Shown: piece by piece, positions 10,599-28,910 of the stretch | How positions within the stretch are numbered: position 1 is the first letter of the stretch | Layout of the letters: each line of letters opens with the position of its first letter | Origin: Formosa sp. Hel1_33_131 | GTDB taxonomy: Bacteria; Bacteroidota; Bacteroidia; Flavobacteriales; Flavobacteriaceae | Assembly (NCBI RefSeq): GCF_001735745.1 | Contig: NZ_CP017260.1 | Coordinates: forward strand, 1,380,001-1,412,000 | Length of the DNA: 32,000 nt | Reading direction: 5' to 3' | Program-made: the position numbers and the translations under genes | The notes under the pieces: model-generated | Databases searched by the model: none | What the model saw: the letters and a program-made list of their open reading frames with translations, nothing else | Told to the model about the DNA's origin: nothing

Positions 10599-10795
10599 GA
10601 AAGTTTTTTCAACAAAAATAAGAAAGATTTAAGATAATCATCTGTTAAGACTTCCCCAAAATTAGAACGGTTATTACTATAATTTTAGGCAAATCACTAT
10701 ATTTTGTTAGTTTTGTACAAAAAGATGGTTATTTTTACAACCTTGCATACGATAATGTGCTATCTTTTAGTTATGAATAAACAAAGACATCTCTG

Positions 10796-13321: not shown

Positions 13322-13333
13322 AACACGACAGCT

Positions 13334-13958: not shown

Positions 13959-14390
13959 ATGAATACACTCTTTAAAAAAAGAGAATTAGACTTTCTCATT
14001 AAATTGTCGGTAATAAGTATATTGCTCTTTGGAGTGCATAGCTATCTAAATTACCATTTCGCACAAGATATCTTACTTTTTTTCCCACTCTGGCATATTT
14101 ATTTATTTCATGTGGTGACCGTTTTGTTGATTTATTCTTTCATAAATTACCGCGACTCCATAGGAAAAACAGAAGTGTTTAATGTCTTTATGCTTGGGAT
14201 GCTTTTAAAAATGATTCTAGTTATTGTTTTTCTATTGCCATGGCTTTTATCTAAGCCTGAACAACAAGGATATGATTTAACGAACTTTTTCGTTCCATAT
14301 TTTATTTTATTGGCTTTTGAAGTGTATTCTGTGACGGAATTTCTTCAAAAAAACGAACCACTTGATACCACTCCAAAAGGCGACAAATAA
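13959..14390 (+). CDS. Membrane protein of unknown function preceding atpB
   Basis: 143 aa with four hydrophobic helices. The ATG abuts the upstream stop. The position corresponds to an ATP synthase protein-I-like slot. Confidence 0.6.
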   Translation: MNTLFKKRELDFLIKLSVISILLFGVHSYLNYHFAQDILLFFPLWHIYLFHVVTVLLIYSFINYRDSIGKTEVFNVFMLGMLLKMILVIVFLLPWLLSKPEQQGYDLTNFFVPYFILLAFEVYSVTEFLQKNEPLDTTPKGDK

Positions 14391-14422
14391 TCATTTAAAT
14401 ATTATTTGTCATTTCATTAAAT

Positions 14423-15553: not shown

Positions 15554-15557
15554 TTAA

Positions 15558-15785
<228 letters not shown>

Positions 15786-15795
15786 AAACACAAAG

Positions 15796-15832
15796 AATAC
15801 TGAAGTGACGGTTGGTTGCTTCAGTATTTTTT
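15796..15832 (+). terminator. Stem-loop plus T-run after atpE (terminator or attenuator-like)
   Basis: aatactgaag (15796-15805) is perfectly complementary to cttcagtatt (15819-15828). The loop is 13 nt and the stem is followed by tttt(15829-15832)aaattt. Confidence 0.4.
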
Positions 15833-15862
15833 AAATTTAAGTTATTTAAAAAAAACAAAGAA

Positions 15863-16357
15863 ATGGATTTAATTACACCGGAATTTGGATTGGTATTTTG
15901 GACGGCAATAACGTTCATTATTCTATTAGTGATTTTAAGAAAATTTGCTTGGAATCCAATTTTAGGAGCTGTTAGCGAGCGTGAAGAAGGTATCAAAACC
16001 GCTCTAGCATCTGCTGAAAATGCGCGTAAAGAAATGGAGAATCTTACTGCAGATAACGACCGTATTTTGCAAGAAGCCCGTGCCGAACGTCAAGCCATGC
16101 TTAAAGAAGCACGTGAGTTAAAAAGCAGTATGATTGAATCTGCAAAAACAGAAGCAAAAGAAGAAGCTAATAAATTAGTAGCACAAGCACAAGCCGCTAT
16201 CGAATCTGAAAAGAAAGCCGCTATTGCCGATTTAAAATCAGTGGTTGCAGAACTTTCAATTTCTATTGCAGAAGCAGTGGTTCGTGAAGAGCTTTCAGAC
16301 AAAGCGAAACAAGAAAAATTAGTGGAATCAATGTTGGAAAACGCTACCCTAAACTAA
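15863..16357 (+). CDS. atpF: F0F1 ATP synthase subunit b
   Basis: MDLITPEFGLVFWTAITFIILLVIL TM anchor, then a long charged coiled coil. The ATG at 15863 is preferred because the upstream GTG at 15812 lies inside the atpE-distal hairpin. Confidence 0.9.
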   Translation: MDLITPEFGLVFWTAITFIILLVILRKFAWNPILGAVSEREEGIKTALASAENARKEMENLTADNDRILQEARAERQAMLKEARELKSSMIESAKTEAKEEANKLVAQAQAAIESEKKAAIADLKSVVAELSISIAEAVVREELSDKAKQEKLVESMLENATLN

Positions 16358-16363
16358 TTAATC

Positions 16364-16900
16364 ATGGCAGGAACAAGAGCAGCAATAAGATATGCAAAAG
16401 CCGTATTAAGCTTAGCATCAGATAACAAACAAGCAGCGGCAGTCCAGGCAGATATGACCCTTATCGGTCAAGCAATTGCAGACAATGCTTCTTTGGAAGC
16501 AGCGCTCAAAAGCCCTGTGGTCAAACTATCTGAAAAAGCAGATGTATTGAAAGCTGTATTTCCTTCTGTAAGTTCAGAAAGTAAATCGTTGTTTAATATT
16601 CTTGTAACCAACAAAAGAGTCGATATTCTAGGTCAAGTAGCTACCCAATTCGGGATTCTATACGATCTAGCAAACAATAAAGAAAATGCCTTTGTAACCA
16701 CCGCCATCCCGATGACTTCTGAATTAGAAGCCAAAGTCATGGCAAAGCTTAAAACCTTAACCACAAAGGAAGTGACCCTTAGCAATTCTGTAGATGAAAA
16801 CATCCTTGGTGGGTTCATTTTACGAGTTGGAGATCAACAATACGATGCGAGTGTTTCGAATCAATTAAATACGTTAAAACGTAAATTTACAATTAACTAA
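16364..16900 (+). CDS. atpH: F0F1 ATP synthase subunit delta
   Basis: 178 aa starting RYAKAVLSLA. C-terminal ILGGFILRVGDQQYDASV, typical of OSCP/delta. Its position between atpF and atpA also fits. Confidence 0.9.
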   Translation: MAGTRAAIRYAKAVLSLASDNKQAAAVQADMTLIGQAIADNASLEAALKSPVVKLSEKADVLKAVFPSVSSESKSLFNILVTNKRVDILGQVATQFGILYDLANNKENAFVTTAIPMTSELEAKVMAKLKTLTTKEVTLSNSVDENILGGFILRVGDQQYDASVSNQLNTLKRKFTIN

Positions 16901-16941
16901 AACTATACTGAGATTCAATCAGAGGTATAAAATAAATTAAG

Positions 16942-18522
16942 ATGGCAGAAGTAAAAGCAGCTGAAATATCAGCAATTTTAAAACAACAACTTTCAGGTTT
17001 CGAAGCAACAGCTTCCTTAGATGAGGTAGGAACTGTATTAACTGTAGGGGATGGTATTGTGCGTGCATACGGACTTTCCAATGCAGAATATGGCGAACTT
17101 GTACAATTTGAAGGCGATCTTGAAGGGATTGTATTAAACCTTGAAGAAGACAATGTTGGTATCGTACTTTTAGGCGCTTCTAACGTCATAAAAGAAGGTT
17201 CTATTGTAAAACGTACCGGACGTATTGCTTCCATCAATGTTGGTGAAGGAATTGTTGGCCGTGTGGTAGATACACTTGGTGCACCGATTGACGGTAAAGG
17301 CCCTATTGAAGGGAAACTTTACGAAATGCCTTTAGAGCGTAAAGCACCCGGGGTTATTTTTCGTGAGCCTGTAACTGAGCCTTTACAAACAGGTATCAAA
17401 TCCATTGACGCCATGATCCCAGTAGGACGTGGACAACGTGAGTTGGTGATTGGTGACAGACAAACCGGTAAAACGGCCGTTTGTATTGATACCATCTTAA
17501 ATCAAAAAGAATTTTACGATGCAGGGGAACCTGTATATTGTATCTATGTAGCTGTTGGACAAAAAGCGTCAACAGTGGCATTGATTGCTAAAACATTGGA
17601 AGAAAAAGGAGCCTTAGCATACACGACAATTGTCGCAGCAAATGCTTCGGATCCAGCACCAATGCAAGTATATGCACCCTTTGCAGGCGCCGCTATTGGT
17701 GAATTTTTCAGAGATACGGGTCGTCCAGCATTGATTGTCTATGACGATTTATCAAAACAAGCCGTTGCTTACCGTGAAGTATCACTTTTATTACGTCGTC
17801 CTCCGGGACGTGAGGCGTATCCAGGAGATGTATTTTACTTACACTCCCGTTTATTAGAGCGTGCAGCAAAAGTCATCAACAACGATGAAATTGCAAAAGA
17901 CATGAACGACTTACCAGACTCCTTAAAGCCAATTGTAAAAGGAGGAGGTTCTTTAACAGCCCTTCCAATTATTGAAACACAAGCAGGCGATGTATCTGCT
18001 TATATTCCAACCAACGTAATTTCGATTACGGATGGTCAGATTTTCTTAGATGGTGATTTGTTTAATTCTGGTGTTCGTCCAGCAATTAACGTCGGTATTT
18101 CGGTATCTCGTGTGGGTGGAAATGCACAGATTAAAGCGATGAAAAAAGTATCTGGAACCTTAAAATTAGACCAGGCTCAATTCCGTGAATTGGAAGCCTT
18201 TGCTAAGTTTGGATCTGATTTAGATGCCGTCACTTTAAATGTGATTGAAAAAGGAAGACGTAACGTTGAAATTTTGAAGCAAGCACAAAACGATCCTTTC
18301 AAAGTAGAAGATCAAGTTGCAATTATTTTTGCAGGATCTAAAAACTTGTTAAGAGCCGTGCCTGTCAACAAAGTAAAAGAATTTGAAACGGAATACATCG
18401 AGTTTTTAAGAGCCAAGCACAGCGATGTGTTAGCAACCTTAAAATCAGGTAAATTAACAGACGAAGTTACAGATACGTTAACAGCAGTTGCAAAAGAATT
18501 ATCAGGAAAGTATAAAGATTAA
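16942..18522 (+). CDS. atpA: F0F1 ATP synthase subunit alpha
   Basis: Walker A GDRQTGKT. Also the alpha blocks [46 protein letters not shown]. 526 aa. Confidence 0.97.
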
Positions 18523-18538
18523 ATAGTTAGGAGTTTAG

Positions 18539-18563
18539 AGTGATGAGTTCAGAGTTATAAGCT
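18539..18563. repeat. Left arm of the inverted repeat flanking the four-helix-bundle cassette
   Basis: agtgatgagttcagagttataagct pairs with 18925-18949 at 21 of 25 positions (hand alignment). The arm is built of GAGTT-like short units. Confidence 0.6.
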
Positions 18564-18598
18564 CATTTCTTTAACTTCATATTAATAGCTTAAAAAAA

Positions 18599-18933
18599 AT
18601 GTCTTTAAATAACAGTCCTATACGAGTAAAGAGTTTTTAGTTTGCTTGTGAGATTGTTCATTTTACGGATAAATTAAAAAAAATAAGGATTTTGAGTTAG
18701 CTTCTCAATTGCTAAAAAGCGGAACGAGTATTGGAGCCAATACAAGAGAAGCTCAAAGAGGAGTTAGTAAAAAGGACTTTAAAAATAAATTTGGAATTGC
18801 TTTAAAGGAAGCTGATGAGACCAAATATTGGTTAGAAATTCTTGAAGCTACAGGAAGAGAAGTTCCAACAGAAATGATGAATAAGTGTGAAGAGTTAATA
18901 AGAATTTTAGTAGCAATCATTAAAAACTCATAA
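18599..18933 (+). pseudogene. Four-helix-bundle protein (23S rRNA intervening-sequence protein family), disrupted
   Basis: The 3' part (ORF 18709-18933) reads QLLKSGTSIGANTREAQRGVSKKDFKNKFGIALKEADETKYWLEIL, the hallmark core of this family. The 5' part is in another frame from the ATG at 18599 (MSLNNSPIRVKSF*FACEIVHFTDKLKK). There is an in-frame TAG at 18638-18640 where family members have SFEFA. A frame change in the A8 run (18676-18683) is also needed. Confidence 0.7.
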
Positions 18934-18949
18934 CTCTGCACTCATAACT
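18925..18949. repeat. Right arm of the inverted repeat flanking the four-helix-bundle cassette
   Basis: aactcataactctgcactcataact is the reverse complement partner of 18539-18563. It overlaps the stop codon of the pseudogene and ends 6 nt before the atpG ATG. Confidence 0.6.
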
Positions 18950-18955
18950 TGAAAC

Positions 18956-19810
18956 ATGGCAAATTTAAAAGAAATCCGAAATAGAATAGCATCCGTATCT
19001 TCAACGATGCAGATTACAAGTGCCATGAAAATGGTATCGGCTGCTAAGTTGAAAAAAGCACAAGATGCCATCACAGCGATGCGTCCTTATGCTAATAAAT
19101 TAACGGAGCTTTTACAAAACCTAAGTGCCACTTTGGACGCCGATTCTGGTAGTAAATATTCAGAACAACGCGAAATCAAAAACGTGCTTATTGTAGCCAT
19201 TACTTCCAACAGAGGGTTGTGTGGTGCGTTCAATTCCAATATTATCAAGAGAGCAACGGCAGTAGCGGAAAGTTACGATGCCAATGTATCTGTGGTAGCC
19301 ATTGGAAAAAAAGCGAATGATGCCCTCTCAAAAAACTTTGAGATCATTTCCAATCAGAGTCCTGTTTATGACGATTTAACATTTGACAATGTTGCTGCAA
19401 TTGCAGAGATGCTCATGGAGCAATTTGAATCCAAAGCATTTGACAAGATTGAAGTTATTTATAATAAATTCAAAAATGCAGCGACTCAAGAAATCATGAC
19501 CGAGCAGTTTTTGCCAATTGAGCCCTTAGAAGGGGATACCAATGGAAACCTCGATTATATTTTTGAACCGTCTAAAGAAGAGATTGTAGAGACCTTAATT
19601 CCAAAGTCGTTAAAGACACAATTGTACAAGTCCATACGTGACAGTTTTGCAAGCGAGCACGGCGCCCGAATGACTGCGATGCACAAAGCAACCGACAATG
19701 CTACGGAGCTCAGAGATCAGCTTAAATTGACGTACAACAAAGCACGTCAAGCATCCATTACCAATGAGATTTTAGAAATTGTTGGTGGGGCGGAAGCTTT
19801 GAATGGCTAG
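18956..19810 (+). CDS. atpG: F0F1 ATP synthase subunit gamma
   Basis: MANLKEIRNRIASVSSTMQITSAMKMVSAAKL N-terminus. C-terminal NKARQASITNEILEIVGGAEAL. Both are canonical gamma helices. Confidence 0.95.
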   Translation: MANLKEIRNRIASVSSTMQITSAMKMVSAAKLKKAQDAITAMRPYANKLTELLQNLSATLDADSGSKYSEQREIKNVLIVAITSNRGLCGAFNSNIIKRATAVAESYDANVSVVAIGKKANDALSKNFEIISNQSPVYDDLTFDNVAAIAEMLMEQFESKAFDKIEVIYNKFKNAATQEIMTEQFLPIEPLEGDTNGNLDYIFEPSKEEIVETLIPKSLKTQLYKSIRDSFASEHGARMTAMHKATDNATELRDQLKLTYNKARQASITNEILEIVGGAEALNG

Positions 19811-19861
19811 TGGTTTAATTTATACTTATAAACAAGTCGCCTAAAAAGCCTTGTACTTGTC

Positions 19862-19882
19862 AAGCTGAACTCGTTTCAGCTT
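19862..19882. terminator. Hairpin between convergent genes (possible bidirectional terminator)
   Basis: aagctgaa (19862-19869) and ttcagctt (19875-19882) form a perfect 8-bp stem with a 5-nt loop. It sits between the atpG stop and the stop of the minus-strand gene at 19907. The flanking T/A tracts are modest. Confidence 0.4.
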
Positions 19883-19906
19883 CCCATGTTTTGTTTATAA
19901 CGAACA

Positions 19907-20473
19907 TTAAAAAGTATACCCAACCCTTAAATGGAGGTCCAAAGCCGTTTCAGTTTTATTAGAAGTAAATCCATATTGTTTTAAGAAATACTTCCTAAAA
20001 CCGATTCCAATGCCCAACTCATAAGTGAAATGGTTCCCAACAGTTCTTTTAATTCCCCACTTAGGGATTAATGAAAAATTTTCAGCTATAGAAACGCTTT
20101 CAATGCTTGAAATCACAAACGCATCAGGCGTGTAATTTAATTTTAAACTTAAGAAATTCCCTGAGTTCTTTAAAATCGATTGGTCGTTATTGAAGCGTTT
20201 ATTCAAATTGTAATAGAACCGAGGTTCTAAATTCAACGTTGGAAACAAAATAAAATTTACATTCTTATAATAATCACCTCCAAAAAGACCGGTATCTAAG
20301 CCTATTTCACTTCTTAAAGCGATGCTATTGGACAGTCTTGTTTCATTATGAATCCAAACACCGAAAAACCCTGTTTGAATTCCATTAATTGATTTTTCAA
20401 CACTGGCATTTTTTTGTGCTTCTGTTGTAACTGAAAATAGAATTACAGAAAGTATTAGATATAGATGTTTCAT
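19907..20473 (-). CDS. Outer-membrane beta-barrel protein (small porin-like)
   Basis: Signal peptide MKHLYLILSVILFSVTTEAQ. Alternating amphipathic strands. C-terminal LHLRVGYTF, ending in Phe as is typical for OMPs. Confidence 0.65.
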   Translation of the reverse strand: MKHLYLILSVILFSVTTEAQKNASVEKSINGIQTGFFGVWIHNETRLSNSIALRSEIGLDTGLFGGDYYKNVNFILFPTLNLEPRFYYNLNKRFNNDQSILKNSGNFLSLKLNYTPDAFVISSIESVSIAENFSLIPKWGIKRTVGNHFTYELGIGIGFRKYFLKQYGFTSNKTETALDLHLRVGYTF

Positions 20474-20488
20474 GTGTTTGTATTTTAG

Positions 20489-21022
20489 TTATAATTTAAA
20501 CCCTAGTGACAGTCCGATACTAGAGATGAGATAATTTGAATTTGTTTCCTCGATCATTAAAAACTCCTTGCTTTTCACAAAGGCTTCAACCACATATTGA
20601 ACACGATAATCACTTTCAAAAGTATAGCCAATCCCTAATTTTGAGCTGTATCCTTTTGAGAATCCACTTATATTCAAGCTTTTCCCTGCGTTTAATAAAA
20701 CATAAGGACTGTTGATCCCATATTCTTTCAAATACCATTTTACATCTCCAACAATTGGGATGGACTTATAGTCGTCTTTAACATTAAAAGCGATGCCAAC
20801 CCCCAGAGAAATACTGAGCGTCTTAAAAACAAATACACCATTGAATGTACTTAATTCAATACCAAATCCTTCATTGACAACGATGGCTTGGTTGGAGTAA
20901 TTACTTTCTTTATTGGCAAAAATCTCTAAGGTGGTTGTGTTCGTAAACACGCTTTGATTCGCTTCACCTTGAGAGAGACAAAGGGAAGGGAAAATTAAAA
21001 ATAAGAGATATACGGTTTTCAT
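20489..21022 (-). CDS. Outer-membrane beta-barrel protein (small porin-like)
   Basis: Signal peptide MKTVYLLFLIFPSLCLSQ. Beta-strand-rich sequence ending GLSLGFKL. The start is placed at the ATG at 21022; the upstream TTG extension is encoded by the repeat. Confidence 0.6.
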   Translation of the reverse strand: MKTVYLLFLIFPSLCLSQGEANQSVFTNTTTLEIFANKESNYSNQAIVVNEGFGIELSTFNGVFVFKTLSISLGVGIAFNVKDDYKSIPIVGDVKWYLKEYGINSPYVLLNAGKSLNISGFSKGYSSKLGIGYTFESDYRVQYVVEAFVKSKEFLMIEETNSNYLISSIGLSLGFKL

Positions 21023-21065
21023 GACGTAGAATAGATTTGGGATCAATTCTTAATGCAAAGTAAGA
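21016..21065. repeat. Direct repeat copy A (promoter/5'UTR/start-codon module)
   Basis: ttttcatgacgtagaatagatttgggatcaattcttaatgcaaagtaaga. It differs from 24225-24275 by 2 substitutions and one 1-nt indel. It contains the CAT (ATG on the minus strand) of the OMP gene and a near-consensus -7 box (TTACTTTG on the minus strand). Confidence 0.85.
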
Positions 21066-21079
21066 TAACGATTTAGATT

Positions 21080-21889
21080 TCACCATCGTACTTGATAAGG
21101 ATAGGGTTCATAAATTTCGTTGGCTTCATTTATAGTATTGCCCAGTTGAGCATCGCGTTTAGCCGCTTCCATAGTTGTTTTTGATTCTTTATATTTTTCC
21201 AAACGCATCAAGCAAATTGCTTTATAATATTTCGCATCGGAAAAATTAGGGTACTGTTCAAGGGATTTATCAAACTGAAATATAGCGTCCTCCCACATCC
21301 CTTGTTCATACATACTTATACCATAATAGAAAATATCTAAAAAATGCGCCTCTCCCCATTGTTTTTCTTGCGCTATAATGTCCGTTTTAAAAATAGCTTC
21401 TGCCTTTTTGTATTCATTTAACTGTAAATAGCACAGTGCAATATGAAATTGATAGGTGTGATCCTGCACATAGCTATAGCCATCCATTTGAACACATAAC
21501 TCAAAATCTTTAAGAGCTTCTTTATACTGTTTAGAAAAAATACACTTGATAAATGCTCTATAGCTTAACCAGCGTTCTGGCTTATAAAAAACGGCTTTAT
21601 CTAAATATGCCATACCAACTTCATACTTTCTTGCTTTAAAATAAGGCATTGCTTTTTGCTGCCAAAAATAAGCGACAGTACTATCGACTTTGATTCCCTC
21701 ATCTAAGCAATTTTGCCACTCCTGCATCTGATAATTATAGTTGAATTTTTCAGCACAATTGTAAACATATTTTTCAATGAGTCCTTCTTGTCGTAATTCT
21801 TTTTCTTTTGCGGTTTCAGTATGAGAATCCTTTTGCCCTTCACATTGCATAAAAATAAAGGACAGGATAATTAGTGTTAATTTATTCAT
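21080..21889 (-). CDS. TPR-repeat lipoprotein
   Basis: Lipobox LSFIFMQC. At least three or four TPR-like units (AYFWQQKAMPYFKARKYEVGMAYLDKAV; YQFHIALCYLQLNEYKKAEAIF; FYYGISMYEQGMWEDAIFQFDKSL; AKYYKAICLMRLEKYKES). The ATG overlaps the end of the upstream ORF by 8 nt. Confidence 0.75.
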   Translation of the reverse strand: MNKLTLIILSFIFMQCEGQKDSHTETAKEKELRQEGLIEKYVYNCAEKFNYNYQMQEWQNCLDEGIKVDSTVAYFWQQKAMPYFKARKYEVGMAYLDKAVFYKPERWLSYRAFIKCIFSKQYKEALKDFELCVQMDGYSYVQDHTYQFHIALCYLQLNEYKKAEAIFKTDIIAQEKQWGEAHFLDIFYYGISMYEQGMWEDAIFQFDKSLEQYPNFSDAKYYKAICLMRLEKYKESKTTMEAAKRDAQLGNTINEANEIYEPYPYQVRW

Positions 21890-22760
21890 TAGTTTTGAGT
21901 GGGTTTAATTTGGTGAATTCTTTGTAAGTAAAATTATAGGGTTGATTTCGGTATGAAAATTCTGTAAACGTATAGCCATATTTTTTGCAACTTCTAACAC
22001 ACATATCACTGATCGTTTCAAAAACAGAAATACTGTTTTTAGTTAACACCTTTTCTATACCACCATAGTGTTTTATAACATTATTAAAAGTGTTTATATC
22101 TAAGTTGTATTTTATTAAATAAAAGCCAATTCTCCCTATTGCTTCATGTGCTTGTCGCTTATCAAAACAGTTATTAGAAATACAATTATCTAAACAGAGA
22201 ATAGTGGTGTAGTACGTATATAGGGCATGAAAAAGAATATAGAAACTTCTATATTCTTTGGGGTTGTTTACGATGCTTTTAATATTTAAATTTTCATCAA
22301 TTAGAAAATAGTCTTTTCTTTTAAAGGTAATAGTGGTCATAATAATATGACCGGTTTGATGCGCAATGTCATCCACAAAAAAAACTTCATCATACTCTTT
22401 TTGAAATACATTTAAAAAAGCCATGCCATGGGCATTAATAGTAGCAAATGAATTTGTATTTTTTGGGTCTGTTTTAAATAGGAGTATTTTTTTACAACAT
22501 TGTTCAATTAAATTATAATGATTGGAGGAGTATTTTTTTATATATGACAAGGCAATTGTTAAGGACTCTTCGTGAACTTCTACTAATTCCTTTGATATAG
22601 TTATTTTACGTTCCTCAATTGGCTGTTCATTAAAATCTCTGAAAATATATTTCAAGTAGATTATAGGGTATTGTATCAGTTCAATGTTGGTATGTGCTAT
22701 GAATTTTATTTTCTCAAATGGAATAGATTCATTAACTTTAAAATATCCAATATTTGGCAC
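21882..22760 (-). CDS. Unknown protein with HQTGH...H motif (possible HExxH-type peptide-modification domain); probably the C-terminal part of a split gene
   Basis: 292-aa ORF with a GTG start. FVDDIAHQTGHIIMT (H134/H138, nt 22347-22361) is followed about 40 aa later by NNPKEYRSFYILFHALYTYY. This resembles my recollection of the HExxH-domain family layout, but with Gln in place of Glu. The frame is open upstream as far as the A7 tract shared with the 75-aa ORF. Confidence 0.55.
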   Translation of the reverse strand: MPNIGYFKVNESIPFEKIKFIAHTNIELIQYPIIYLKYIFRDFNEQPIEERKITISKELVEVHEESLTIALSYIKKYSSNHYNLIEQCCKKILLFKTDPKNTNSFATINAHGMAFLNVFQKEYDEVFFVDDIAHQTGHIIMTTITFKRKDYFLIDENLNIKSIVNNPKEYRSFYILFHALYTYYTTILCLDNCISNNCFDKRQAHEAIGRIGFYLIKYNLDINTFNNVIKHYGGIEKVLTKNSISVFETISDMCVRSCKKYGYTFTEFSYRNQPYNFTYKEFTKLNPLKTNE

Positions 22761-22776
22761 ATAAGCTATCCCATCC

Positions 22777-23004
22777 CTACTGTATGAATGGGTTAATTTC
22801 TTCTTTTTTTATAAAATAGCCCTGTAGCATCTCCTCTAGAGCTTCTTTAGGGTACGAATTGTAGCTTTTTGAGTTAAAATAAGCAAATAATAATGGCTCT
22901 AAAAAAACTTCATCATCATCAAAATTTAGTTTTTTAAAAACACTTGTATTCTCTTTATATAATAACAGTTTAATGGTATTAATAATTTCGTCTCTATTTT
23001 TCAT
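22777..23004 (-). CDS. 75-aa ORF, probably the N-terminal fragment of the gene continuing at 22760
   Basis: The ATG at 23004 lies 12 nt after the CPBP stop. The ORF ends 18 nt past an A7 run (plus-strand T7 at 22804-22810). The downstream ORF's frame opens exactly at that run. No motif recognised. Confidence 0.45.
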   Translation of the reverse strand: MKNRDEIINTIKLLLYKENTSVFKKLNFDDDEVFLEPLLFAYFNSKSYNSYPKEALEEMLQGYFIKKEEINPFIQ

Positions 23005-23016
23005 TTTTTTTAATCC

Positions 23017-23610
23017 TTAAATTAAATTAAACACAATTATCGACATATTATAAAATGAGTGAATTAGAATCGTCTGAATTAAATTTTTATTTCTGAAATA
23101 AATAAAAGTAGTTACCAATCCAAACACAAAATGGGTAATATAAATATCAGGTAGATGAGATATAGCAAAATATGATGCTGACAGTAAAATAGCCAAATAT
23201 GGCTTTAACTTAAGTTGCAAAAGGTTTTTAAAGACAATTTTTTTATTAAAAATCTCTTCTATAATTGGAACCGCAAATAAAACATAAATAAGCCTTGAAA
23301 AATCAAAGGTTGGTTTTTCTAATGGTTTAAAAAGATGAAATTCTGAATAGTAACTAAAAAACAACACTACACTTATACCAAGGGAAAAAAGGATTTCATT
23401 GAAACTGATTTTGTTACTTTCTAATTTAAAAATATTTATTTTAAAAGCTATATAGAACACAATAATATGAGAAATTATAACCCCGAAATAAGATAATAAA
23501 TTTGTTGTTTTTATGTTTTCATTGCCAAAATGAACACTTAAAAGGACACTCAAAACACTTAGAAATGGAAGTAGTAAGCATAGTGTCAATATTTTAAAAG
23601 ACAATTTCAT
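23017..23610 (-). CDS. CPBP family intramembrane glutamic endopeptidase (CAAX protease/Abi, bacteriocin-immunity-type)
   Basis: Six or more TM helices. Motif 1 PIIEEIFNK (EExxxR-like). Motif 2 YFAISH (FxxxH). Motif 3 IHSFYN (HxxxN). Confidence 0.8.
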   Translation of the reverse strand: MKLSFKILTLCLLLPFLSVLSVLLSVHFGNENIKTTNLLSYFGVIISHIIVFYIAFKINIFKLESNKISFNEILFSLGISVVLFFSYYSEFHLFKPLEKPTFDFSRLIYVLFAVPIIEEIFNKKIVFKNLLQLKLKPYLAILLSASYFAISHLPDIYITHFVFGLVTTFIYFRNKNLIQTILIHSFYNMSIIVFNLI

Positions 23611-23626
23611 ATAAATGTTTTTATAA

Positions 23627-23658
23627 AAAAAGATGATTTAATAAAAAACCATCTTTTT
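23627..23658 (-). terminator. AT-rich hairpin plus T-run between the peptide gene and the CPBP gene (possible attenuator)
   Basis: On the minus strand: AAAAAGATG-14 nt loop-CATCTTTTT, running into TTTTTTTAT. Plus-strand arms are 23627-23635 and 23650-23658. The stem is weak (mostly A-T). Confidence 0.3.
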
Positions 23659-23669
23659 ATTTAACTTAT

Positions 23670-23876
23670 CTACATACATTGAAAATAATGGGCTATTGCA
23701 TTACCAAGTTTTAGCCACGAAGAAGCCATTCCATCTCCTGGTGCACTAGTGTCTGCATTTTGGTGACTACAAGGATGACAATCGTTTGCTGTTCCACCAG
23801 AAATGGTGTTCAATAATTCTTCTGAAGCTACTGCTCCAGCTCTTTCTTTGAGAGCGTCTAATGATAATTTACTCAC
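23670..23876 (-). CDS. Candidate precursor peptide with double-glycine-type leader (bacteriocin/RiPP-like)
   Basis: 68 aa with a GTG start. Leader MSKLSLDALKERAGAVASEELLNTISGG, with hydrophobic residues at -4 and -7, Glu at -9/-10 and Ser at -11 relative to the GG. The 40-aa core is TANDCHPCSHQNADTSAPGDGMASSWLKLGNAIAHYFQCM. The gene is followed by a protease-family gene. Confidence 0.55.
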   Translation of the reverse strand: MSKLSLDALKERAGAVASEELLNTISGGTANDCHPCSHQNADTSAPGDGMASSWLKLGNAIAHYFQCM

Positions 23877-24009
23877 AACATAATAAATTTTATTTAGTGC
23901 CTACTCTTTAGTTTTTCGGCGACCACTAGTCAATAAGCTTTTCCTAACCAACCAATTACAAAATAAAAACATCTCAATCTCATTTTATGACATTGTCTAT
24001 TTTTTATAA

Positions 24010-24231
24010 TTAAATCTCAAAATTGTAACCTGCCTCTGTATATATATAACACTGAGAATGTTTACAATATAGGATGGGTGCGCCCCGATCTCTTAATTCA
24101 GCGATCAGCCTGTAAACAGTGGCAACAGAAACATTCAATTTTTCAGCTAATTGTAAAGGCGTACCAGTTGCTTCCCTTTGGATCAATGAATGAAGGCATT
24201 TTATTCTTTCTATGTGCGTGTATATTTTCAT
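24010..24231 (-). CDS. Small helix-turn-helix DNA-binding protein (HTH_11/DeoR-N-like)
   Basis: 73 aa. GTPLQLAEKLNVSVATVYRLIAELRDRGAPI is a classic winged-HTH segment of the kind found at the N-terminus of WYL/DeoR-type regulators. Confidence 0.7.
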   Translation of the reverse strand: MKIYTHIERIKCLHSLIQREATGTPLQLAEKLNVSVATVYRLIAELRDRGAPILYCKHSQCYIYTEAGYNFEI

Positions 24232-24275
24232 GGTGTAGAATAGATTTGGGAGTCAATTCTTAATGCAAAGTAAGA
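24225..24275. repeat. Direct repeat copy B (promoter/5'UTR/start-codon module)
   Basis: ttttcatggtgtagaatagatttgggagtcaattcttaatgcaaagtaaga. It contains the CAT (ATG on the minus strand) of the HTH gene. See copy A. Confidence 0.85.
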
Positions 24276-24338
24276 AATTTTTTCAAATCGGCTTTTTTTA
24301 TGGCATAAAACTTGTAGAAGAAAAACAAATCCAAAACT

Positions 24339-24962
24339 ATGAATACCTACAAAAGATTAATTATTGGTTCTCTTATCTTATTTTCAAACATATCATTTTC
24401 GCAAACTCAAGGAACATCCGAAATTAATGTGAGTTTGGGGGTCGCAACTTTTGAGGACTTTAGAGTTGCACTTGACGATGTTGTATCCTCGATAGTGACG
24501 ACTGTAATTTCTGGACAAGAATTAACTTACTCCGATGGAGGTAGATTAACAGGATATACGGCTCACTATGGTTACGCAGTAAAGGATCGATGGATGTTAG
24601 GAGCCTCATTAGCATACCAAACCGTAAATCGAAAGTTATTTTTAGACAATAAAGAATCAGGGAAAAGTTCAAGTGCAGTCTATTCTTTTGGGATCGAAAC
24701 AAATTACCGCTACATTTCAAATCCAATATTTCAAATGTATTCTGGTTTAGGTGCAGGCTATGCTTTTGGGAAATCATCATTTACCTTAGAAGACGCTAAT
24801 TTGGAGTTTAAAGATAAGAACAAGACTGATTATAAAATTAATTATTTTACATTTCATGTGACAGCGCTTGGTTTTCGAGTAGGAAAGAAATTAGCGGCCT
24901 TCGCAGAAATCGGGTTTGGTTATAAAGGGATCTTAAATGGGGGAATTTCTTATCAATTTTAG
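24339..24962 (+). CDS. Outer-membrane beta-barrel protein (OmpW/porin-like)
   Basis: Signal peptide LIIGSLILFSNISFSQTQ. Alternating strands. C-terminal GGISYQF. Confidence 0.7.
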   Translation: MNTYKRLIIGSLILFSNISFSQTQGTSEINVSLGVATFEDFRVALDDVVSSIVTTVISGQELTYSDGGRLTGYTAHYGYAVKDRWMLGASLAYQTVNRKLFLDNKESGKSSSAVYSFGIETNYRYISNPIFQMYSGLGAGYAFGKSSFTLEDANLEFKDKNKTDYKINYFTFHVTALGFRVGKKLAAFAEIGFGYKGILNGGISYQF

Positions 24963-25098
24963 AATGTCTTTAAGGGTATAAAATCTACTCAAAATAGCAC
25001 CATCAACGAATCAGTGGCTTCAGGGGTTGCCGTATTTTTAGGCTTTAATTTCAAACTCAATTAAAATCCGTATGTTTATAAATCTAAACTCAATCCAA

Positions 25099-25602
25099 AT
25101 GAAACTCACTACCCCCCATATTTTAGGACTCGTTTTTTTAAGCATTGTCAATTGTAAGACCTCACAAGAGCCGGTATTACAATTCCAATCCACTGCGCCT
25201 TTAGGAATCACAGCACCCTATTACAACTCTTGGGTTGCGGGGGTTCAAGGAGGCGGCTCGGGGACCAATGTGTTTTTACCCCTCAAAGAAAATGGAAACA
25301 TTGTCGTTGACAGTCTTCATTTTAGAGGTGAAAAGTCTGCCGTAGAAACAAGAGATAAATTGATTATTGGTCGGTTTAGACATTCTACCAATCAGAAAAA
25401 AGACATCATAATGAGCTCCAATCCACAAGACGAATACAACAACAAGCGGGTCTTGATACGAGACACCTCTCCTTTTAAGCTCACTCAAAACGAGTGTGTT
25501 ATCAGTTACAGTGTCAACGGAAAACGTCTTTATTATAAGATTTCAAACCTCAAAAAAGGGGAAGTGATTGCCTATCCTTCTGCACCTCCAAAAAACCGCT
25601 AA
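25099..25602 (+). CDS. Lipoprotein of unknown function
   Basis: MKLTTPHILGLVFLSIVNC lipobox. The remainder is hydrophilic. The start is placed at the ATG at 25099 rather than the upstream ATG at 25072. Confidence 0.6.
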   Translation: MKLTTPHILGLVFLSIVNCKTSQEPVLQFQSTAPLGITAPYYNSWVAGVQGGGSGTNVFLPLKENGNIVVDSLHFRGEKSAVETRDKLIIGRFRHSTNQKKDIIMSSNPQDEYNNKRVLIRDTSPFKLTQNECVISYSVNGKRLYYKISNLKKGEVIAYPSAPPKNR

Positions 25603-25661
25603 ACAACAATTATAGATTGTTCGTTAAAATGTGTATTTTTATAGGATAAAATAAGAGAGTC

Positions 25662-27134
25662 GTGAGCGTCCTAAAAACAGTATATAAACAAACCTTCATT
25701 TACGGACTGGCAACGGTGGTTCCCAGAATGTTGAGCTTTCTTTTGGTGCGTTTGCATACCGATAAATCGGTGTTAGAAAACGTCTCCGACTACGGCGAAG
25801 TATCTATCGTATTTGCCTATTTTGTGCTGTTTAACGTGGTGCTTGCTTATGGAATGGAAACCGCTTTTTTCCGTTTTTTCAATAAAGAACCTTCCAAAGC
25901 CAAAGTGCTCAGTACTGCCACAATTTCAATTTTAGGATCCTCTTTAGGATTTTTAGCACTCGGTTTGCTGTTTCAACAACAGATCGCCGATCTCACACAT
26001 ATCCATGTCAACTACATCACCCTCGTTGTGTGGACTCTGTTTTTTGATGCCATGGTCATTATTCCCTTTGCCTATTTGAGAGCGCAAGGAAAGCCGGTGA
26101 AATATACAGCGGTAAAACTCACCAATGTAGTGGTCAATCTGGCTTTAAATGTTTTCTTACTCGTGTATTTAAAAGCACTGTCGGTTGACAACAGTCTCTG
26201 GGATTCCATCTATATCGCTAATTTTGAAGTGAGTTATATTTTCATCGCCAATCTAGTCGCGAGTGGAGTTACTTTGTTGATTCTGTTGCCGTTTTATTTT
26301 AAAATCAATTATAAAATAGATACCGTTCTTTGGAAAAAAATGCTGCGGTATGCCTTGCCAGTCTTGGTGGCTGGGGTCGCATTTTCCATCAACGAAACCT
26401 TTGATCGGGTGTTATTGGAGCGTCTCCTTCCGGAGTCCATTGCCAAAACGGCCGTAGGAATGTACTCCGGCTGTTACAAGCTCGCCCTTTTTATGATGTT
26501 GTTTGCAACCGCCTACCGCTTGGGAATAGAACCTTTCTTTTTCAGTCAATCCAAAACAAAAGACGCTACCAAAAACTATGCAAAAATATTGGAATTTTTT
26601 GTCATCTGTGGCGCTCTTATTTTGCTCGTTGTTGTGGTGTTTGTCGATGTTTTAAAACTCATTCTCATTCCAAATGAAGATTACTGGGAAGCCATGAAAG
26701 TCGTGCCGATTTTATTATTGGCGTATCTTTTTCTTGGGATATATCATAATTTATCTGTGTGGTACAAAATCACAGACCGCACCAAGTTTGGGGCTTATAT
26801 ATCGGTGATTGGTGCGGGAATCACCCTTTTAGTCAATCTAATTTTCATCCCTTCGTTTAGTTATATGGCTTCTGCCATAGCCACCTTAGTGGCGTATGTT
26901 TCAATGACCGTATTATCATATTATTTTGGACGCAAGCATTACCCGATACCTTACAACATAAAAAAAATAGGCATCTATTTAGTCCTTGCCATCAGTTTAT
27001 CAGCCCTGTCGTTTTATCAATTCAGAGCCCAGTATTTCATCGGGTCTGCCTTGATAGGAATTTTAGTACTTATTATCTGGTCCAATGAAAAAGCGACTAT
27101 TAAACAATTTTTAAAACCCTCCCATGACCATTAA
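25662..27134 (+). CDS. Polysaccharide/oligosaccharide flippase (MOP/Wzx-like superfamily)
   Basis: 490 aa with about 14 TM helices. The N-terminus [23 protein letters not shown] is typical of this superfamily. GTG start. Confidence 0.75.
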
Positions 27135-27555
27135 AATTATAAACAAATCAGCCCATCAACTTCCTGAATACGAAACAGGCGCATCCGCAGGAATGGACCT
27201 TCGCGCGAATATTTTAGAAGCGGTTATTTTAAAACCATTAGCCCGTGCAATTATCAAAACAGGCTTGTTTATAGAGCTCCCTGTGGGGTTCGAAGCACAA
27301 GTGCGACCCAGAAGTGGTCTGGCAGCAAAACATGGCTTAACAGTCCTGAACAGCCCTGGCACTGTGGATGCAGATTACCGTGGTGAAATAGGCGTTATTT
27401 TAGTGAACCTATCCAATACAGATTTCAAAATAGAAAATGGTGAACGCATCGCGCAATTGGTCATCGCAAAACACGAACGGGCAGATTGGCTCGAAGTAGA
27501 ACAACTCACCGAAACCGCTCGTGGCCAAGGTGGATTTGGAAGCACTGGAAAATAA
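27124..27555 (+). CDS. dut: dUTP diphosphatase
   Basis: [30 protein letters not shown] and a C-terminal [10 protein letters not shown]: all five dUTPase motifs are recognisable. Confidence 0.95.
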
Positions 27556-28910
27556 TGAAGAGAACACGACATGGTTTTGTAGTTTTTTGTATCCTGATAA
27601 GTTCGTTTGGGATACAAGCACAAGCTGAGACAGACAATCTTTTGTCAGTTTCAAACGACAGTACCCATGTCAAATTTCAAAATCATTTTTATGATGCGAT
27701 GAAACAAAAAGCACTTGAAAATTATTCCAAAGCGATTGATGAATTAATAATTTGTAAGTCCTTAAAACCAACGGAATCGGTGGTGTTTCATGAGTTGGGT
27801 ATTAATTATTTCAAGTTGAAACAATACGAAAGTGCCGAATATAATTTCCAAAAAGCCATCGCATTAGATGCTGATAATTTTTGGTATAGAGAAAGTTTGT
27901 ACCATTTGTATATAGATCAAAAACGTTTTGATGAGGCTATTTTAGCGCTCCAACCAATGCTGTCGCGCCATCCAGATTATAAACAAGATTTAGTGAATCT
28001 CTACCTAGAAGCGGGACGTTACGACGACGCACTCACCGTTTTGGATGATTTAGATAATACACTAGGAATAAAGGCATCTAGAGATCAAATCCGAAAGGAG
28101 CTATACGATTTAAGCGGGGCTGAAGACAAGCGGATTGCGCACCTTCAAAAACGCTTGCAAGAAACACCCGAAGAACCCACTAATTTTTTGAATCTCATTT
28201 ACGCCTATAGCAAGTTAGATCAAAAAAAGGAAGCGTTTGAAACCGCTCTGGAATTTTTGAAACAACATCCAAAATCTCATTTGGTTCATGTGGCCTTGTA
28301 TAAATTTTATTTAGATGCGAAAGAGTATGATAAGGCGATCGCCTCCATGAAAATTGTCACGACCAGTACCGTTGTGGTGCCCAGTCTTAAAGTGAAAGTG
28401 TTGAATGATTTTATGCGGTTTATAGCCGAGTTTCCAGAGTATGAATTCGCTTTGGCAGACGTTACCAATACCGTCAGTGAAAACACCCCGAGCCGCTCCG
28501 ACTTAGAATGGGCGGATTATTATTACAATCAAAAAGCCTATTTAAAAGCAATTTCTTCGTATTCAAAAGCCTTGGAATTTGACCCTGATAATTTTACAAT
28601 TATTAAAAACCTAGCTCTGCTATATTTGGAAACCAATCAATTTGAAACGGCCGTCTTATTCACCGATGATCAGATGGAGTTATACCCTTCTCAACCTCTA
28701 TTATATTTAGTCAATGGCACTGCAAACAGACAGCTTAACAACTTAGATTTGGCGGTTGAATCCCTCACCACAGGATTGGATTATTTGTTCGATAATAAAA
28801 AACTTGAACACGATTTTTACAAACAACTCAGCACTGCCTTTGAGCTACAAGGTAATATTGAAGAGTCAGAAGCGTTTACTAAAAAAGCAATGGCATTAGA
28901 AAATAATTAA
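27555..28910 (+). CDS. TPR-repeat protein (secreted)
   Basis: Signal peptide [24 protein letters not shown]. Multiple TPR units (e.g. HELGINYFKLKQYESAEYNFQKAIALD). The ATG overlaps the dut stop (TAATG). The upstream ORF extension is rejected. Confidence 0.75.
   Translation: MKRTRHGFVVFCILISSFGIQAQAETDNLLSVSNDSTHVKFQNHFYDAMKQKALENYSKAIDELIICKSLKPTESVVFHELGINYFKLKQYESAEYNFQKAIALDADNFWYRESLYHLYIDQKRFDEAILALQPMLSRHPDYKQDLVNLYLEAGRYDDALTVLDDLDNTLGIKASRDQIRKELYDLSGAEDKRIAHLQKRLQETPEEPTNFLNLIYAYSKLDQKKEAFETALEFLKQHPKSHLVHVALYKFYLDAKEYDKAIASMKIVTTSTVVVPSLKVKVLNDFMRFIAEFPEYEFALADVTNTVSENTPSRSDLEWADYYYNQKAYLKAISSYSKALEFDPDNFTIIKNLALLYLETNQFETAVLFTDDQMELYPSQPLLYLVNGTANRQLNNLDLAVESLTTGLDYLFDNKKLEHDFYKQLSTAFELQGNIEESEAFTKKAMALENN

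What the first reader, a model, noticed from the sequence alone, without database searches (positions are those of the whole stretch)
21016..24275. Compact peptide-centred cassette (HTH - GG-leader peptide - CPBP protease - HQxxH protein - TPR lipoprotein) that fits no RiPP/bacteriocin class I recognise
All five genes are on the minus strand. Downstream of the peptide gene they are tightly packed: a 12-nt CPBP-to-ORF75 gap, then ORF75/ORF292 contiguous across a frameshift site, then an 8-nt overlap into the TPR lipoprotein gene. The lead structural gene encodes a 68-aa peptide with a double-glycine-type leader, which is the usual signature of an exported or modified peptide. I see none of the usual partners anywhere in the window: no LanB/C/M, radical SAM, YcaO, or C39-peptidase ABC exporter. 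The partners present are a CPBP intramembrane protease, a protein with an HxxxH...H metal-site-like motif, and a TPR lipoprotein. That combination would be an undescribed maturation/immunity architecture in Flavobacteriia. The cassette is also delimited by a long direct repeat and has mosaic base composition (see separate findings), so it looks accessory rather than core.
Basis: partly seen in the sequence, partly recalled or inferred. Interest (0 to 1): 0.82.

Follow-up and report, generated by a model that had tools for sequence, protein, structure and literature searches.

The report
Eroded remnant of a peptide-modification cluster
The five genes are real, but they are a broken, exporter-less leftover of a gene cluster widespread in Bacteroidota, which pairs an exported peptide carrying an invariant Cys-His motif with a divergent member of a recently described family of iron-dependent peptide oxygenases.

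Summary
HTH, 68-aa GG-leader peptide, CPBP, ORF75+ORF292 and the TPR gene lie as described, flanked by a 50-nt direct repeat in a low-GC patch.

- ORF75+ORF292 is one ~374-aa gene broken by a 2-bp deletion. Three 98-99% identical relatives have it intact.
- Its AlphaFold model matches only the aKG-dependent HExxH peptide oxygenases in the PDB (8S5F, SjiH). 58 of 123 diverse relatives hit TIGR04267. It is therefore a divergent HQxGH branch of a known RiPP tailoring family, not an unknown protein.
- Across about 60 Bacteroidota loci the conserved order is peptide, optional CPBP or other genes, this enzyme, an extracytoplasmic TPR protein, a C39-peptidase ABC exporter, then HlyD. The "missing" exporter is normally present.
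- A near-identical relative (L065) carries the exporter pair. In the window it has been replaced by two small outer-membrane-like genes, and another relative (L068) has lost still more.
- All 79 distinct precursors share GG-x4-10-Cys-His. The five loci with two enzyme copies flanking one peptide have peptides with two CH motifs.

The window copy is most likely a decaying, non-producing remnant. The family itself looks like an uncharacterised RiPP class.

The parts
24010..24231 (-). Small HTH_11 regulator gene (73 aa)
   Evidence: PF08279, E 4.4e-8. The same gene sits upstream of the precursor in L003-5, L023, L065 and L067. Other loci carry a response regulator in its place.
24225..24275 (-). 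Direct repeat, copy A: the 5'UTR and first two codons of the HTH gene
   Evidence: A 17-nt core of it also lies just upstream of the HTH gene in L003-5 and L065 and occurs twice in L068, so this copy is native to the HTH gene.
23670..23876 (-). Precursor peptide gene (68 aa). Leader MSKLSLDALKERAGAVASEELLNTISGG occupies nt 23793-23876. The invariant Cys33-His34 codons are at 23775-23780.
   Evidence: Leader HMM hits 82 ORFs next to the enzyme gene in related loci. All 79 unique peptides carry GG-x4-10-CH. No NCBIfam or Pfam model matches them.
23620..23658 (-). Terminator/attenuator-like hairpin with a U-run, directly after the precursor gene
   Evidence: 13-bp stem, -14.1 kcal/mol, z = -3.5 against shuffles. 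Its function is inferred.
23017..23610 (-). CPBP (Rce1-like) intramembrane protease-family gene (197 aa). Motifs EEIFNK, FAISH and HSFYN are present.
   Evidence: PF02517, 57.4 bits. CPBP-like genes sit between precursor and enzyme in 17 of 51 loci.
21882..23004 (-). Disrupted gene (ORF75+ORF292) for a divergent aKG-HExxH-type (HQTGH) oxygenase. The 2-bp deletion lies between 22795 and 22796.
   Evidence: frameshift. (model pLDDT 92.8). (Foldseek hits only 8S5F and SjiH). (TIGR04267 hits among relatives). (conserved H216, Q217, H220, R253, H260, R292).
21080..21889 (-). TPR protein gene (269 aa) with an N-terminal signal peptide and Cys16; extracytoplasmic, possibly a lipoprotein
   Evidence: TPR Pfam hits. 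Follows the enzyme gene in 34 of 41 loci. All homologues carry a signal peptide, lipobox or membrane anchor.
21016..21065 (-). Direct repeat, copy B: a copy of the HTH 5'UTR and start codon fused to the ORF185 gene. It marks the junction where the exporter genes were replaced.
   Evidence: Homology with L065 ends at window 21067.
19847..21067 (-). Replacement segment: two small outer-membrane-like genes (ORF185, true start ATG 21022; ORF188, 19907-20473). It occupies the place of C39-ABC and HlyD.
   Evidence: the 3.5 kb PCAT+HlyD stretch of L065 (11942-15442) corresponds to this 1.2 kb; the same pair occurs in L068, and outside any such cluster in L069.

Best explanation
The cassette is a partly eroded copy of a conserved Bacteroidota cluster for a ribosomal peptide exported by a peptidase-containing ABC transporter (PCAT).

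How the intact system is proposed to work:
1. A precursor is made with a conserved double-glycine leader (KLSLdALKeRA...ELL..IsGG) and a hypervariable core. The core begins with an invariant Cys-His, usually 4 residues after GG.
2. In the cytoplasm it is bound by a ~375-aa enzyme. This is a divergent, HQxGH-motif member of the Fe(II)/alpha-ketoglutarate 'HExxH' peptide oxygenase superfamily.
3. That enzyme oxidatively modifies the Cys-His site. The likeliest reaction is beta-hydroxylation of the His, a known activity of the family. A Cys-His-centred oxidation or cross-link is the alternative.
4. A C39-peptidase ABC transporter with its HlyD partner cuts after GG and exports the peptide.
5. An extracytoplasmic TPR protein acts after export, in a role that is unknown.
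6. Optional genes add immunity or further tailoring: CPBP, ThiF plus alpha/beta-hydrolase, a metallo-beta-lactamase-fold protein, and a small lipoprotein.
7. A small HTH protein or a response regulator controls expression.

In this window the exporter pair has been replaced by two unrelated small outer-membrane-like genes, and the enzyme gene carries a 2-bp frameshift. The locus most likely no longer makes a mature exported product. It may still give CPBP-type immunity.

Shown: gene identities, synteny, the fold and family link, motif invariance, the frameshift and the population alleles.
Inferred: the chemistry, CH as the target site, the CPBP immunity role and the TPR role.
For: Enzyme identity:
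- Full-length homologues cover the fused ORF75+292.
- The AlphaFold model is confident: pLDDT 92.8, pTM 0.92.
- The only significant Foldseek PDB matches are the ChlBHExxH aKG-dependent oxygenase 8S5F (E 1.8e-6, probability 1.0, TM 0.51-0.64) and SjiH (E 6.8e-5). The next hit has E 0.3.
- 12 of 69 close and 58 of 123 diverse family members hit TIGR04267.2, 'aKG-HExxH-type peptide beta-hydroxylase'. The best E is 1.1e-13, and P0235 scores 39.4 bits over model positions 1-176.
- H216, Q217, H220, R253, H260 and R292 are at least 90% conserved down to 25% identity. HQxGH is present in 61 of 67 locus-encoded homologues.

Synteny:
- Of 41 loci with enough flanking sequence, 39 have the precursor, 34 TPR, 33 C39-ABC and 29 HlyD.

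Target site:
- All 79 distinct precursors have GG-x4-10-CH.
- 5 of 5 loci arranged enzyme-peptide-enzyme have peptides with two CH motifs, against 2 of 72 other peptides (Fisher p = 1e-6).

Erosion:
- The 2-bp deletion is absent from three 98-99% identical assemblies.
- L065, at 97-98% identity, has TPR-C39ABC-HlyD-atpG where the window has TPR-repeat-ORF185-ORF188-atpG.
- L068, at 99% identity, has lost HTH through the enzyme gene as well.

Published activities of the enzyme family: PMC12636437 and PMC13060819, both citing Morishita et al., Nat Chem 2024.
Against: - The window's own protein and its closest intact relative P0001 do not reach any TIGR04267 score.
- The Glu of HExxH is replaced by Gln in every family member in which the motif was found (61 of 67).
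- PDB sequence-profile searches find nothing relevant.
- I could not obtain a residue-level superposition on 8S5F, so equivalence of the metal ligands is inferred.
- No experiment shows that the peptide is modified at all, or at CH.
- The 2-bp deletion could be an assembly error.
- A PCAT elsewhere in the genome could serve in trans. 8 of 41 related loci also lack an adjacent ABC gene.
- The five double-CH loci are phylogenetically clustered (three Kordia, one Aureivirga, one Mucilaginibacter), so the Fisher p overstates independence.
Confidence: 0.7

Rival explanations
1. One reading: the five genes form a self-sufficient, undescribed maturation and immunity cassette that works without a PCAT exporter. 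CPBP would be the leader protease, the HQxxH protein the modifier and the TPR lipoprotein a partner.
For: The genes are tightly packed and co-oriented. CPBP retains its catalytic motifs (sequence). CPBP and the enzyme are read as a single fused ORF in P0003. 8 of 41 related loci lack an adjacent ABC gene.
Against: The enzyme gene is frameshifted here but intact in relatives. A 97-98% identical relative has C39-ABC and HlyD at exactly the point where the window carries foreign genes. CPBP is present in only 17 of 51 loci, so it cannot be the general leader protease. The GG leader matches the C39 cleavage-site logic, and PCAT is present in 33 of 41 loci.
Confidence: 0.08
2. The locus is functional. 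The 2-bp deletion is an assembly error, and export uses a PCAT/HlyD pair encoded elsewhere in the genome.
For: Only 1 synonymous and 3 non-synonymous codon differences separate the window gene from intact L066/L067 copies, so any inactivation is very recent or artefactual. All the other cassette genes are intact.
Against: The ORFs examined elsewhere in the window, such as the atp operon, are full length and show no frameshifts, which argues against a noisy assembly. The indel is 2 bp, not a homopolymer slip. L068 shows that the lineage is actively losing this cluster.
Confidence: 0.17
3. The peptide is an unmodified class II-type bacteriocin or signalling peptide. The HQxGH protein is then not a peptide-modifying enzyme but, for example, an inactive zincin-like or scaffolding protein, and CH is a functional motif of the mature peptide such as a metal-binding site.
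For: The catalytic Glu of HExxH is replaced by Gln in all 61 family proteins where the motif was found. No chemistry has been demonstrated. The cores are hypervariable, as in unmodified bacteriocins.
Against: Foldseek returns no zincin protease, only aKG-HExxH oxygenases. Both His, a third His and two Arg are conserved to 25% identity. The number of enzyme genes tracks the number of CH motifs. The CH motif lies at a fixed distance from the leader, as expected for a leader-guided enzyme site.
Confidence: 0.1

Closest known systems
aKG-dependent HExxH peptide oxygenases (TIGR04267 / IPR026337): ChlBH (PDB 8S5F), PflC/PosC, PesO, BpmH
   Same: Same distinctive fold by Foldseek. Weak to moderate TIGR04267 hits in over 40% of diverse relatives. 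The two-His helix motif plus a further conserved His and Arg residues are present. The gene sits next to a leader-bearing precursor peptide, as in published RiPP clusters (PMC12636437, PMC13060819).
   Different: The motif is HQxGH, not HExxH. The window protein and its close relatives fall below the model cut-off. The family is confined to Bacteroidota and paired with PCAT/HlyD and a TPR protein. The conserved substrate motif is Cys-His; published substrates are His, Asp, Phe, Gln and Pro hydroxylation and ARMD backbone cleavage.
Double-glycine-leader peptides exported by C39-peptidase ABC transporters with HlyD-type partners (class II bacteriocins, colicin V, class II lanthipeptides)
   Same: The leader ends in ELLxxIxGG. 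Related loci carry a 730-aa C39 + ABC_membrane + ABC_tran protein and a 430-aa HlyD/AprE-type protein.
   Different: In this window the exporter pair is missing. The family adds an oxygenase-like enzyme and an extracytoplasmic TPR protein.
CPBP/Abi-family bacteriocin self-immunity proteins of Gram-positive class II bacteriocin loci (from my own knowledge: Kjos et al., J Bacteriol 2010)
   Same: A small polytopic PF02517 protein with the EExxx(R/K), FxxxH and HxxxN motifs, encoded directly beside the peptide gene.
   Different: Immunity has not been tested. The organism is Bacteroidota. The gene is optional within the family (17 of 51 loci).
Bacteroidota GG-leader RiPP precursor families (TIGR04149 rSAM-modified, pinensin and Chryseobacterium leader models)
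   Same: Short precursors with a GG-terminated leader from the same phylum.
   Different: Matches are only marginal (E 0.2-0.4, one peptide each). No rSAM, LanB/C or MNIO gene is present. The CH motif is unique to this set.

Membership tests
aKG-HExxH peptide oxygenase (TIGR04267 / IPR026337) | Scores at or above the curated TIGR04267.2 cut-off (40 bits) | tested here: not met
   ORF292, ORF75 and the intact P0001 give no hit. Relatives score 18-39.4 bits in the ten scanned individually, and the best E among 123 is 1.1e-13. The family straddles the cut-off and the window protein lies below it.
aKG-HExxH peptide oxygenase (TIGR04267 / IPR026337) | The distinctive fold of the ChlBH HExxH domain | tested here: met
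   Foldseek against the PDB: 8S5F chains at E 1.8e-6 to 5.8e-6, probability 1.0, TM 0.51-0.64. SjiH (22ob) at E 6.8e-5. Nothing else below E 0.3. The model has pLDDT 92.8.
aKG-HExxH peptide oxygenase (TIGR04267 / IPR026337) | An HExxH iron-binding motif | tested here: inconclusive
   Both His are conserved (H216, H220), but Glu is replaced by Gln in all 61 of 67 proteins where the motif was found. Positional equivalence to the 8S5F ligands could not be checked because no residue-level superposition was available.
aKG-HExxH peptide oxygenase (TIGR04267 / IPR026337) | Fe(II)- and aKG-dependent oxidation of a precursor peptide | not testable with these tools
   Needs biochemistry.
aKG-HExxH peptide oxygenase (TIGR04267 / IPR026337) | Encoded beside a leader-bearing precursor peptide | tested here: met
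   49 of 51 loci with at least 2.5 kb of upstream sequence have the precursor within 3.5 kb.
PCAT-exported double-glycine peptide system | A double-glycine leader on the precursor | tested here: met
   GG is invariant and the leader reads ELLxxIsGG.
PCAT-exported double-glycine peptide system | A C39-peptidase ABC transporter and HlyD partner in the locus | tested here: not met
   Absent from the whole 32-kb window. Present in 33 and 29 of 41 related loci respectively, and in the 97-98% identical L065.
CPBP (Rce1-like) intramembrane protease family | PF02517 above the gathering score, plus the catalytic motifs | tested here: met
   57.4 bits against a cut-off of 22.4. EEIFNK, FAISH and HSFYN are visible in the sequence, with Arg replaced by Lys in motif 1.
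Lanthipeptide, radical-SAM, YcaO or MNIO RiPP classes | Presence of the class-defining enzyme | tested here: not met
   No such domain was found in the cassette proteins or the other window ORFs scanned, or in the related clusters whose gene tables were inspected.

The most novel reading that the evidence does not exclude
The GG-x4-Cys-His peptides, together with the HQxGH oxygenase-like enzyme, TPR protein and PCAT, form an uncharacterised RiPP class spread across Bacteroidota, with about 700 enzyme clusters at 50% identity. Its class-defining step would be new chemistry on an adjacent Cys-His pair, for example an oxidative Cys-His C-S cross-link or thio-imidazole formation rather than plain beta-hydroxylation, carried out by a Gln-for-Glu variant of the aKG-HExxH fold.
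Probability: 0.3. Interest if true: 0.75.

Novelty: new variant of a known kind. Interest (0 to 1): 0.5.

Why it matters
For this window the result is deflationary. The compact cassette with no exporter is a decaying copy, not a new minimal architecture.

The family behind it is still a concrete genome-mining lead:
- It is a large Bacteroidota-specific branch of the recently discovered aKG-HExxH peptide oxygenases.
- Much of it escapes the current curated TIGR04267 model: 65 of 123 diverse representatives gave no hit at E <= 1, and of ten scanned individually none reached the 40-bit cut-off.
- It has an invariant two-residue target motif, and the number of enzyme copies tracks the number of motifs.

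That makes the enzyme's chemistry directly testable by co-expression and mass spectrometry.

The three population alleles (full cluster, exporter lost plus frameshift, almost everything lost) also give a clean natural series of bacteriocin-like cluster decay at one chromosomal site.

Tried and rejected
Searches that gave nothing:
- NCBIfam and Pfam on ORF292, ORF75 and intact P0001 gave no meaningful hit.
- PDB sequence searches with the profiles A1 and A3 and with P0235 gave nothing relevant. The haemagglutinin hits at E of about 0.03-0.9 are coiled-coil noise.
- Peptides against NCBIfam gave only marginal generic GG-leader hits.
- Rfam over the whole window gave no match, so the repeat is not a known RNA element.
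- The sigma-70 promoter scan was not above shuffle expectation and is not suited to Bacteroidota promoters.
- A rough codon-difference count against close relatives had too few differences to say anything about relaxed selection.

Tools unavailable:

Literature:
- No paper was found combining HExxH, Flavobacterium and precursor peptide.
- No text on SjiH was found.
- CoiH sulfoxide synthase was examined and is unrelated.
- The primary ChlBH paper could not be read, so its metal ligands could not be compared.

Ideas rejected:
- Programmed frameshifting, because the frameshift is absent from relatives.
- A zincin protease, because there is no fold match and Glu is replaced by Gln.
- CPBP as the universal leader protease, because it is present in only about a third of loci.

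Full report
**1. Observation.**

The six minus-strand ORFs exist exactly as described:
- HTH, 24010-24231
- 68-aa peptide, 23670-23876 (GTG start)
- CPBP, 23017-23610
- ORF75, 22777-23004
- ORF292, 21882-22760
- TPR, 21080-21889

The CPBP-to-ORF75 gap is 12 nt, and ORF292 overlaps the TPR gene by 8 nt.

Pfam confirms HTH_11, Rce1-like/CPBP (57 bits) and TPR repeats. ORF75, ORF292 and the peptide hit nothing in Pfam or NCBIfam.

GC drops to 0.25-0.28 over 22-24 kb, against 0.33-0.43 around it.

A direct repeat of about 50 nt, 90% identical, lies at 21016-21065 and 24225-24275.

An AU-rich 13-bp hairpin with a U-run follows the peptide gene, with z = -3.5.

No ABC or HlyD homologue occurs in the window. 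Most of the larger remaining window ORFs were scanned against Pfam and are housekeeping genes. They include polysaccharide and LPS genes, purD, dUTPase, LolB-like and M23 genes. The precomputed Pfam tables of the near-identical contigs L065 and L068 cover the atp operon and the rest of window 10484-28304.

**2. ORF75 and ORF292 are one broken gene.**

The two ORFs lie in adjacent frames with an open read-through. A fused query finds 436 homologues, and nearly all of those listed are 366-383 aa long and cover 97-100% of the query. P0001 is 98% identical and intact.

Alignment with three 98-99% identical assemblies shows a 2-bp deletion in the window. It reads GAAAT--TAACCC against GAAATAATAACCC, between window positions 22795 and 22796. 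This is not a homopolymer slip, and the other window ORFs examined are full length. I therefore treat it as a probable real and very recent inactivation. Only 1 synonymous and 3 non-synonymous codon differences separate the gene from the intact copies. An assembly error cannot be excluded.

**3. What the protein is.**

An AlphaFold2 model of P0001, built from a 69-sequence alignment, is confident: pLDDT 92.8 and pTM 0.92.

Foldseek against the PDB returns only two significant targets:
- the HExxH domain of ChlBHExxH, described as "a novel alpha-ketoglutarate dependent oxygenase" (8S5F; E 1.8e-6, probability 1.0, TM 0.51-0.64);
- SjiH (22ob; E 6.8e-5).

The next hit has E 0.3, and no zincin protease appears.

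At sequence level the link to TIGR04267.2 (aKG-HExxH-type peptide beta-hydroxylase) grows with divergence:
- 12 of 69 close relatives hit it weakly;
- 58 of 123 diverse representatives hit it, with best E 1.1e-13;
- P0235 scores 39.4 bits across the whole 177-position model, against a cut-off of 40 bits.

The family has 702 representatives at 50% clustering with E <= 1e-3.

Residues at least 90% conserved down to 25% identity include H216, Q217, H220, R253, H260 and R292. DDIAHQxGH is present in 61 of 67 locus-encoded homologues.

The protein is therefore a divergent Gln-for-Glu (HQxGH) branch of the aKG-HExxH superfamily. That family has recently been shown to tailor RiPPs. Reported reactions are beta-hydroxylation of His, Asp, Phe, Gln and Pro, and oxidative backbone cleavage (PMC12636437 and PMC13060819, citing Morishita et al., Nat Chem 2024).

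I could not obtain a residue-level superposition, so ligand equivalence is inferred.

**4. The conserved cluster.**

A scan of GTDB species representatives gave 59 loci. They come from MAGs and isolates named as Flavobacterium, Kordia, Chryseobacterium, Pedobacter, Mucilaginibacter, Dyadobacter, Runella, Emticicia, Taibaiella, Saprospiraceae and others.

HMM-based neighbourhood annotation shows one recurring order: regulator, one to six precursor genes, 0 to 1.5 kb of optional genes, enzyme, TPR, C39-peptidase ABC transporter (about 730 aa), then HlyD/AprE-type protein (about 430 aa).

Of 41 loci with enough flanking sequence:

| Component | Loci with it |
|---|---|
| Precursor | 39 |
| TPR | 34 |
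| C39-ABC | 33 |
| HlyD | 29 |
| CPBP | 14 |

Optional modules found:
- CPBP, in about 26 loci
- a lipoprotein-like protein of about 146 aa, in 20 loci
- a metallo-beta-lactamase-fold protein, in 9 loci
- a secreted protein of about 390 aa, in 7 loci
- an Asp-protease plus PDZ protein, in 3 loci
- ThiF plus alpha/beta-hydrolase, in 4 loci

All TPR homologues begin with a signal peptide, lipobox or membrane anchor, so they act outside the cytoplasm.

**5. The precursors.**

The 79 distinct peptides share the leader (M)(S)KLSLdALKeRAea..s.ELL..IsGG. All 79 then carry an invariant Cys-His 4-10 residues after GG, and in 62 of them the distance is exactly 4 residues. The rest of the core is hypervariable, with a median length of 26 residues. 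No curated precursor model matches them.

Five loci are arranged enzyme-peptide-enzyme: L015, L016, L019, L020 and L022. All five encode peptides with two CH motifs (CHxxxCH). Only 2 of the 72 other peptides have two CH motifs (Fisher p = 1e-6). These five loci are phylogenetically clustered, so the p-value overstates their independence.

The fixed distance of CH from the leader, together with this dosage relation, is the best evidence that CH is the enzyme's target.

**6. Why the window lacks an exporter.**

Three near-identical metagenomic relatives show different alleles at the same chromosomal site, between an OMP gene and atpG.

- **L065** (97-98% identical) has HTH, a 4.7-kb insertion, then peptide, CPBP, enzyme, TPR, C39-ABC, HlyD and atpG.
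- **The window** aligns with L065 up to position 21067, just past the TPR stop codon. The 3.5 kb holding the exporter genes is then replaced by 1.2 kb. That 1.2 kb starts with a copy of the HTH 5'UTR and start codon (repeat copy B), followed by ORF185 and ORF188.
- **L068** (99% identical) keeps TPR, the repeat, ORF185 and ORF188, but about 100 nt stand in place of HTH through the enzyme gene.

The ORF185/188 pair also occurs elsewhere with no such cluster (L069).

A 17-nt core of the repeat lies just upstream of the HTH gene in L003-5 and L065, so that copy is native to HTH.

The direct repeat therefore marks a recombination junction. The site is a variable accessory hotspot undergoing stepwise loss.

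**7. Mechanism proposed.**

For the intact system:
1. The leader-guided cytoplasmic enzyme oxidises the Cys-His site. Beta-hydroxylation of the invariant His is the most conservative guess. A Cys-His cross-link or a Cys oxidation is possible.
2. The C39 domain cleaves after GG, and the ABC transporter with HlyD exports the peptide.
3. The TPR protein acts in the periplasm or at the outer membrane.
4. CPBP, where present, most plausibly gives self-immunity, by analogy with Abi/CPBP immunity proteins.
5. The HTH protein or a response regulator controls expression, and the hairpin after the precursor gene sets the precursor-to-enzyme ratio.

For the window, export and modification are both disabled. 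What remains are the regulator, peptide, CPBP and TPR genes. This fits an "immunity retained, production lost" state, or simply recent decay.

Only identities, synteny and motif statistics are shown. All chemistry and roles are inferred.

**8. Comparison and novelty.**

The enzyme works like, and is structurally related to, the aKG-HExxH oxygenases. It fails the curated sequence cut-off and the literal HExxH motif, so I call it a divergent branch rather than a member in good standing.

The export logic is that of a standard double-glycine/PCAT system, although this particular locus fails that membership test because the exporter is absent.

I found no paper describing this Bacteroidota family or the CH motif. 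The library is incomplete, however.

Verdict: the window instance is an ordinary decaying accessory cluster. The family is a new variant of a known kind and a good experimental lead.

Noticed in passing
L003:5840-6001 and L056:1135-1284, with the ThiF and alpha/beta-hydrolase genes beside them: The loci that carry ThiF-like and alpha/beta-hydrolase genes between precursor and enzyme have precursors ending in ...CDNI or ...CDNV. This suggests a second, C-terminal modification tied to that module.
   Followed up: partly
L065:4263-8985; window 23881-24012 matches both ends: In the near-identical relative, a 4.7-kb block of small unannotated ORFs, one with a weak DUF6624 hit, is inserted between HTH and the precursor gene. 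It is flanked by a duplication of about 130 nt of the HTH-precursor intergenic region.
   Followed up: partly
window 24315-24988 (OMP_b-brl gene 24339-24962, + strand): This outer-membrane beta-barrel gene next to the cassette does not align with its counterpart in L065 (183 aa against 207 aa), although both flanks are 91-98% identical. This is a second hypervariable gene at the same site. L068 carries the window's allele.
   Followed up: partly
P0003 (626 aa, JGI metagenome): A CPBP domain and the HQxGH enzyme are read as one fused ORF at 81% identity to the window enzyme. This is either a real fusion or a lost stop codon. Either way it supports a functional link between the two.
   Followed up: no
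window 19907-21046 (ORF188 and ORF185, minus strand): These are two paralogous small signal-peptide proteins with beta-barrel-like C-termini; their C-terminal coding regions share a repeat (D1). ORF188 weakly hits DUF6705. ORF185 has acquired the HTH gene's 5'UTR, so it may now be under the same control as the HTH gene.
   Followed up: partly
Alignment A1 (close relatives of the enzyme): 37 of 69 close family members give weak NCBIfam hits to NeuB/N-acetylneuraminate synthase (TIGR03569, best E 5e-4). Only 1 of 123 diverse representatives does so, so this is probably a local compositional match.
   Followed up: no
L009, L011, L012 and L049, upstream of the enzyme gene: Some Flavobacterium and Paludibacter loci carry 4-6 tandem precursor genes with the same leader and CH motif but unrelated cores. 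This resembles the combinatorial multi-precursor arrangement of prochlorosin-type clusters.
   Followed up: no
window 23620-23658 (minus strand): A strong AU-rich hairpin with a U-run lies between the precursor gene and CPBP (z = -3.5). It is likely an attenuator that sets the precursor-to-enzyme ratio.
   Followed up: partly
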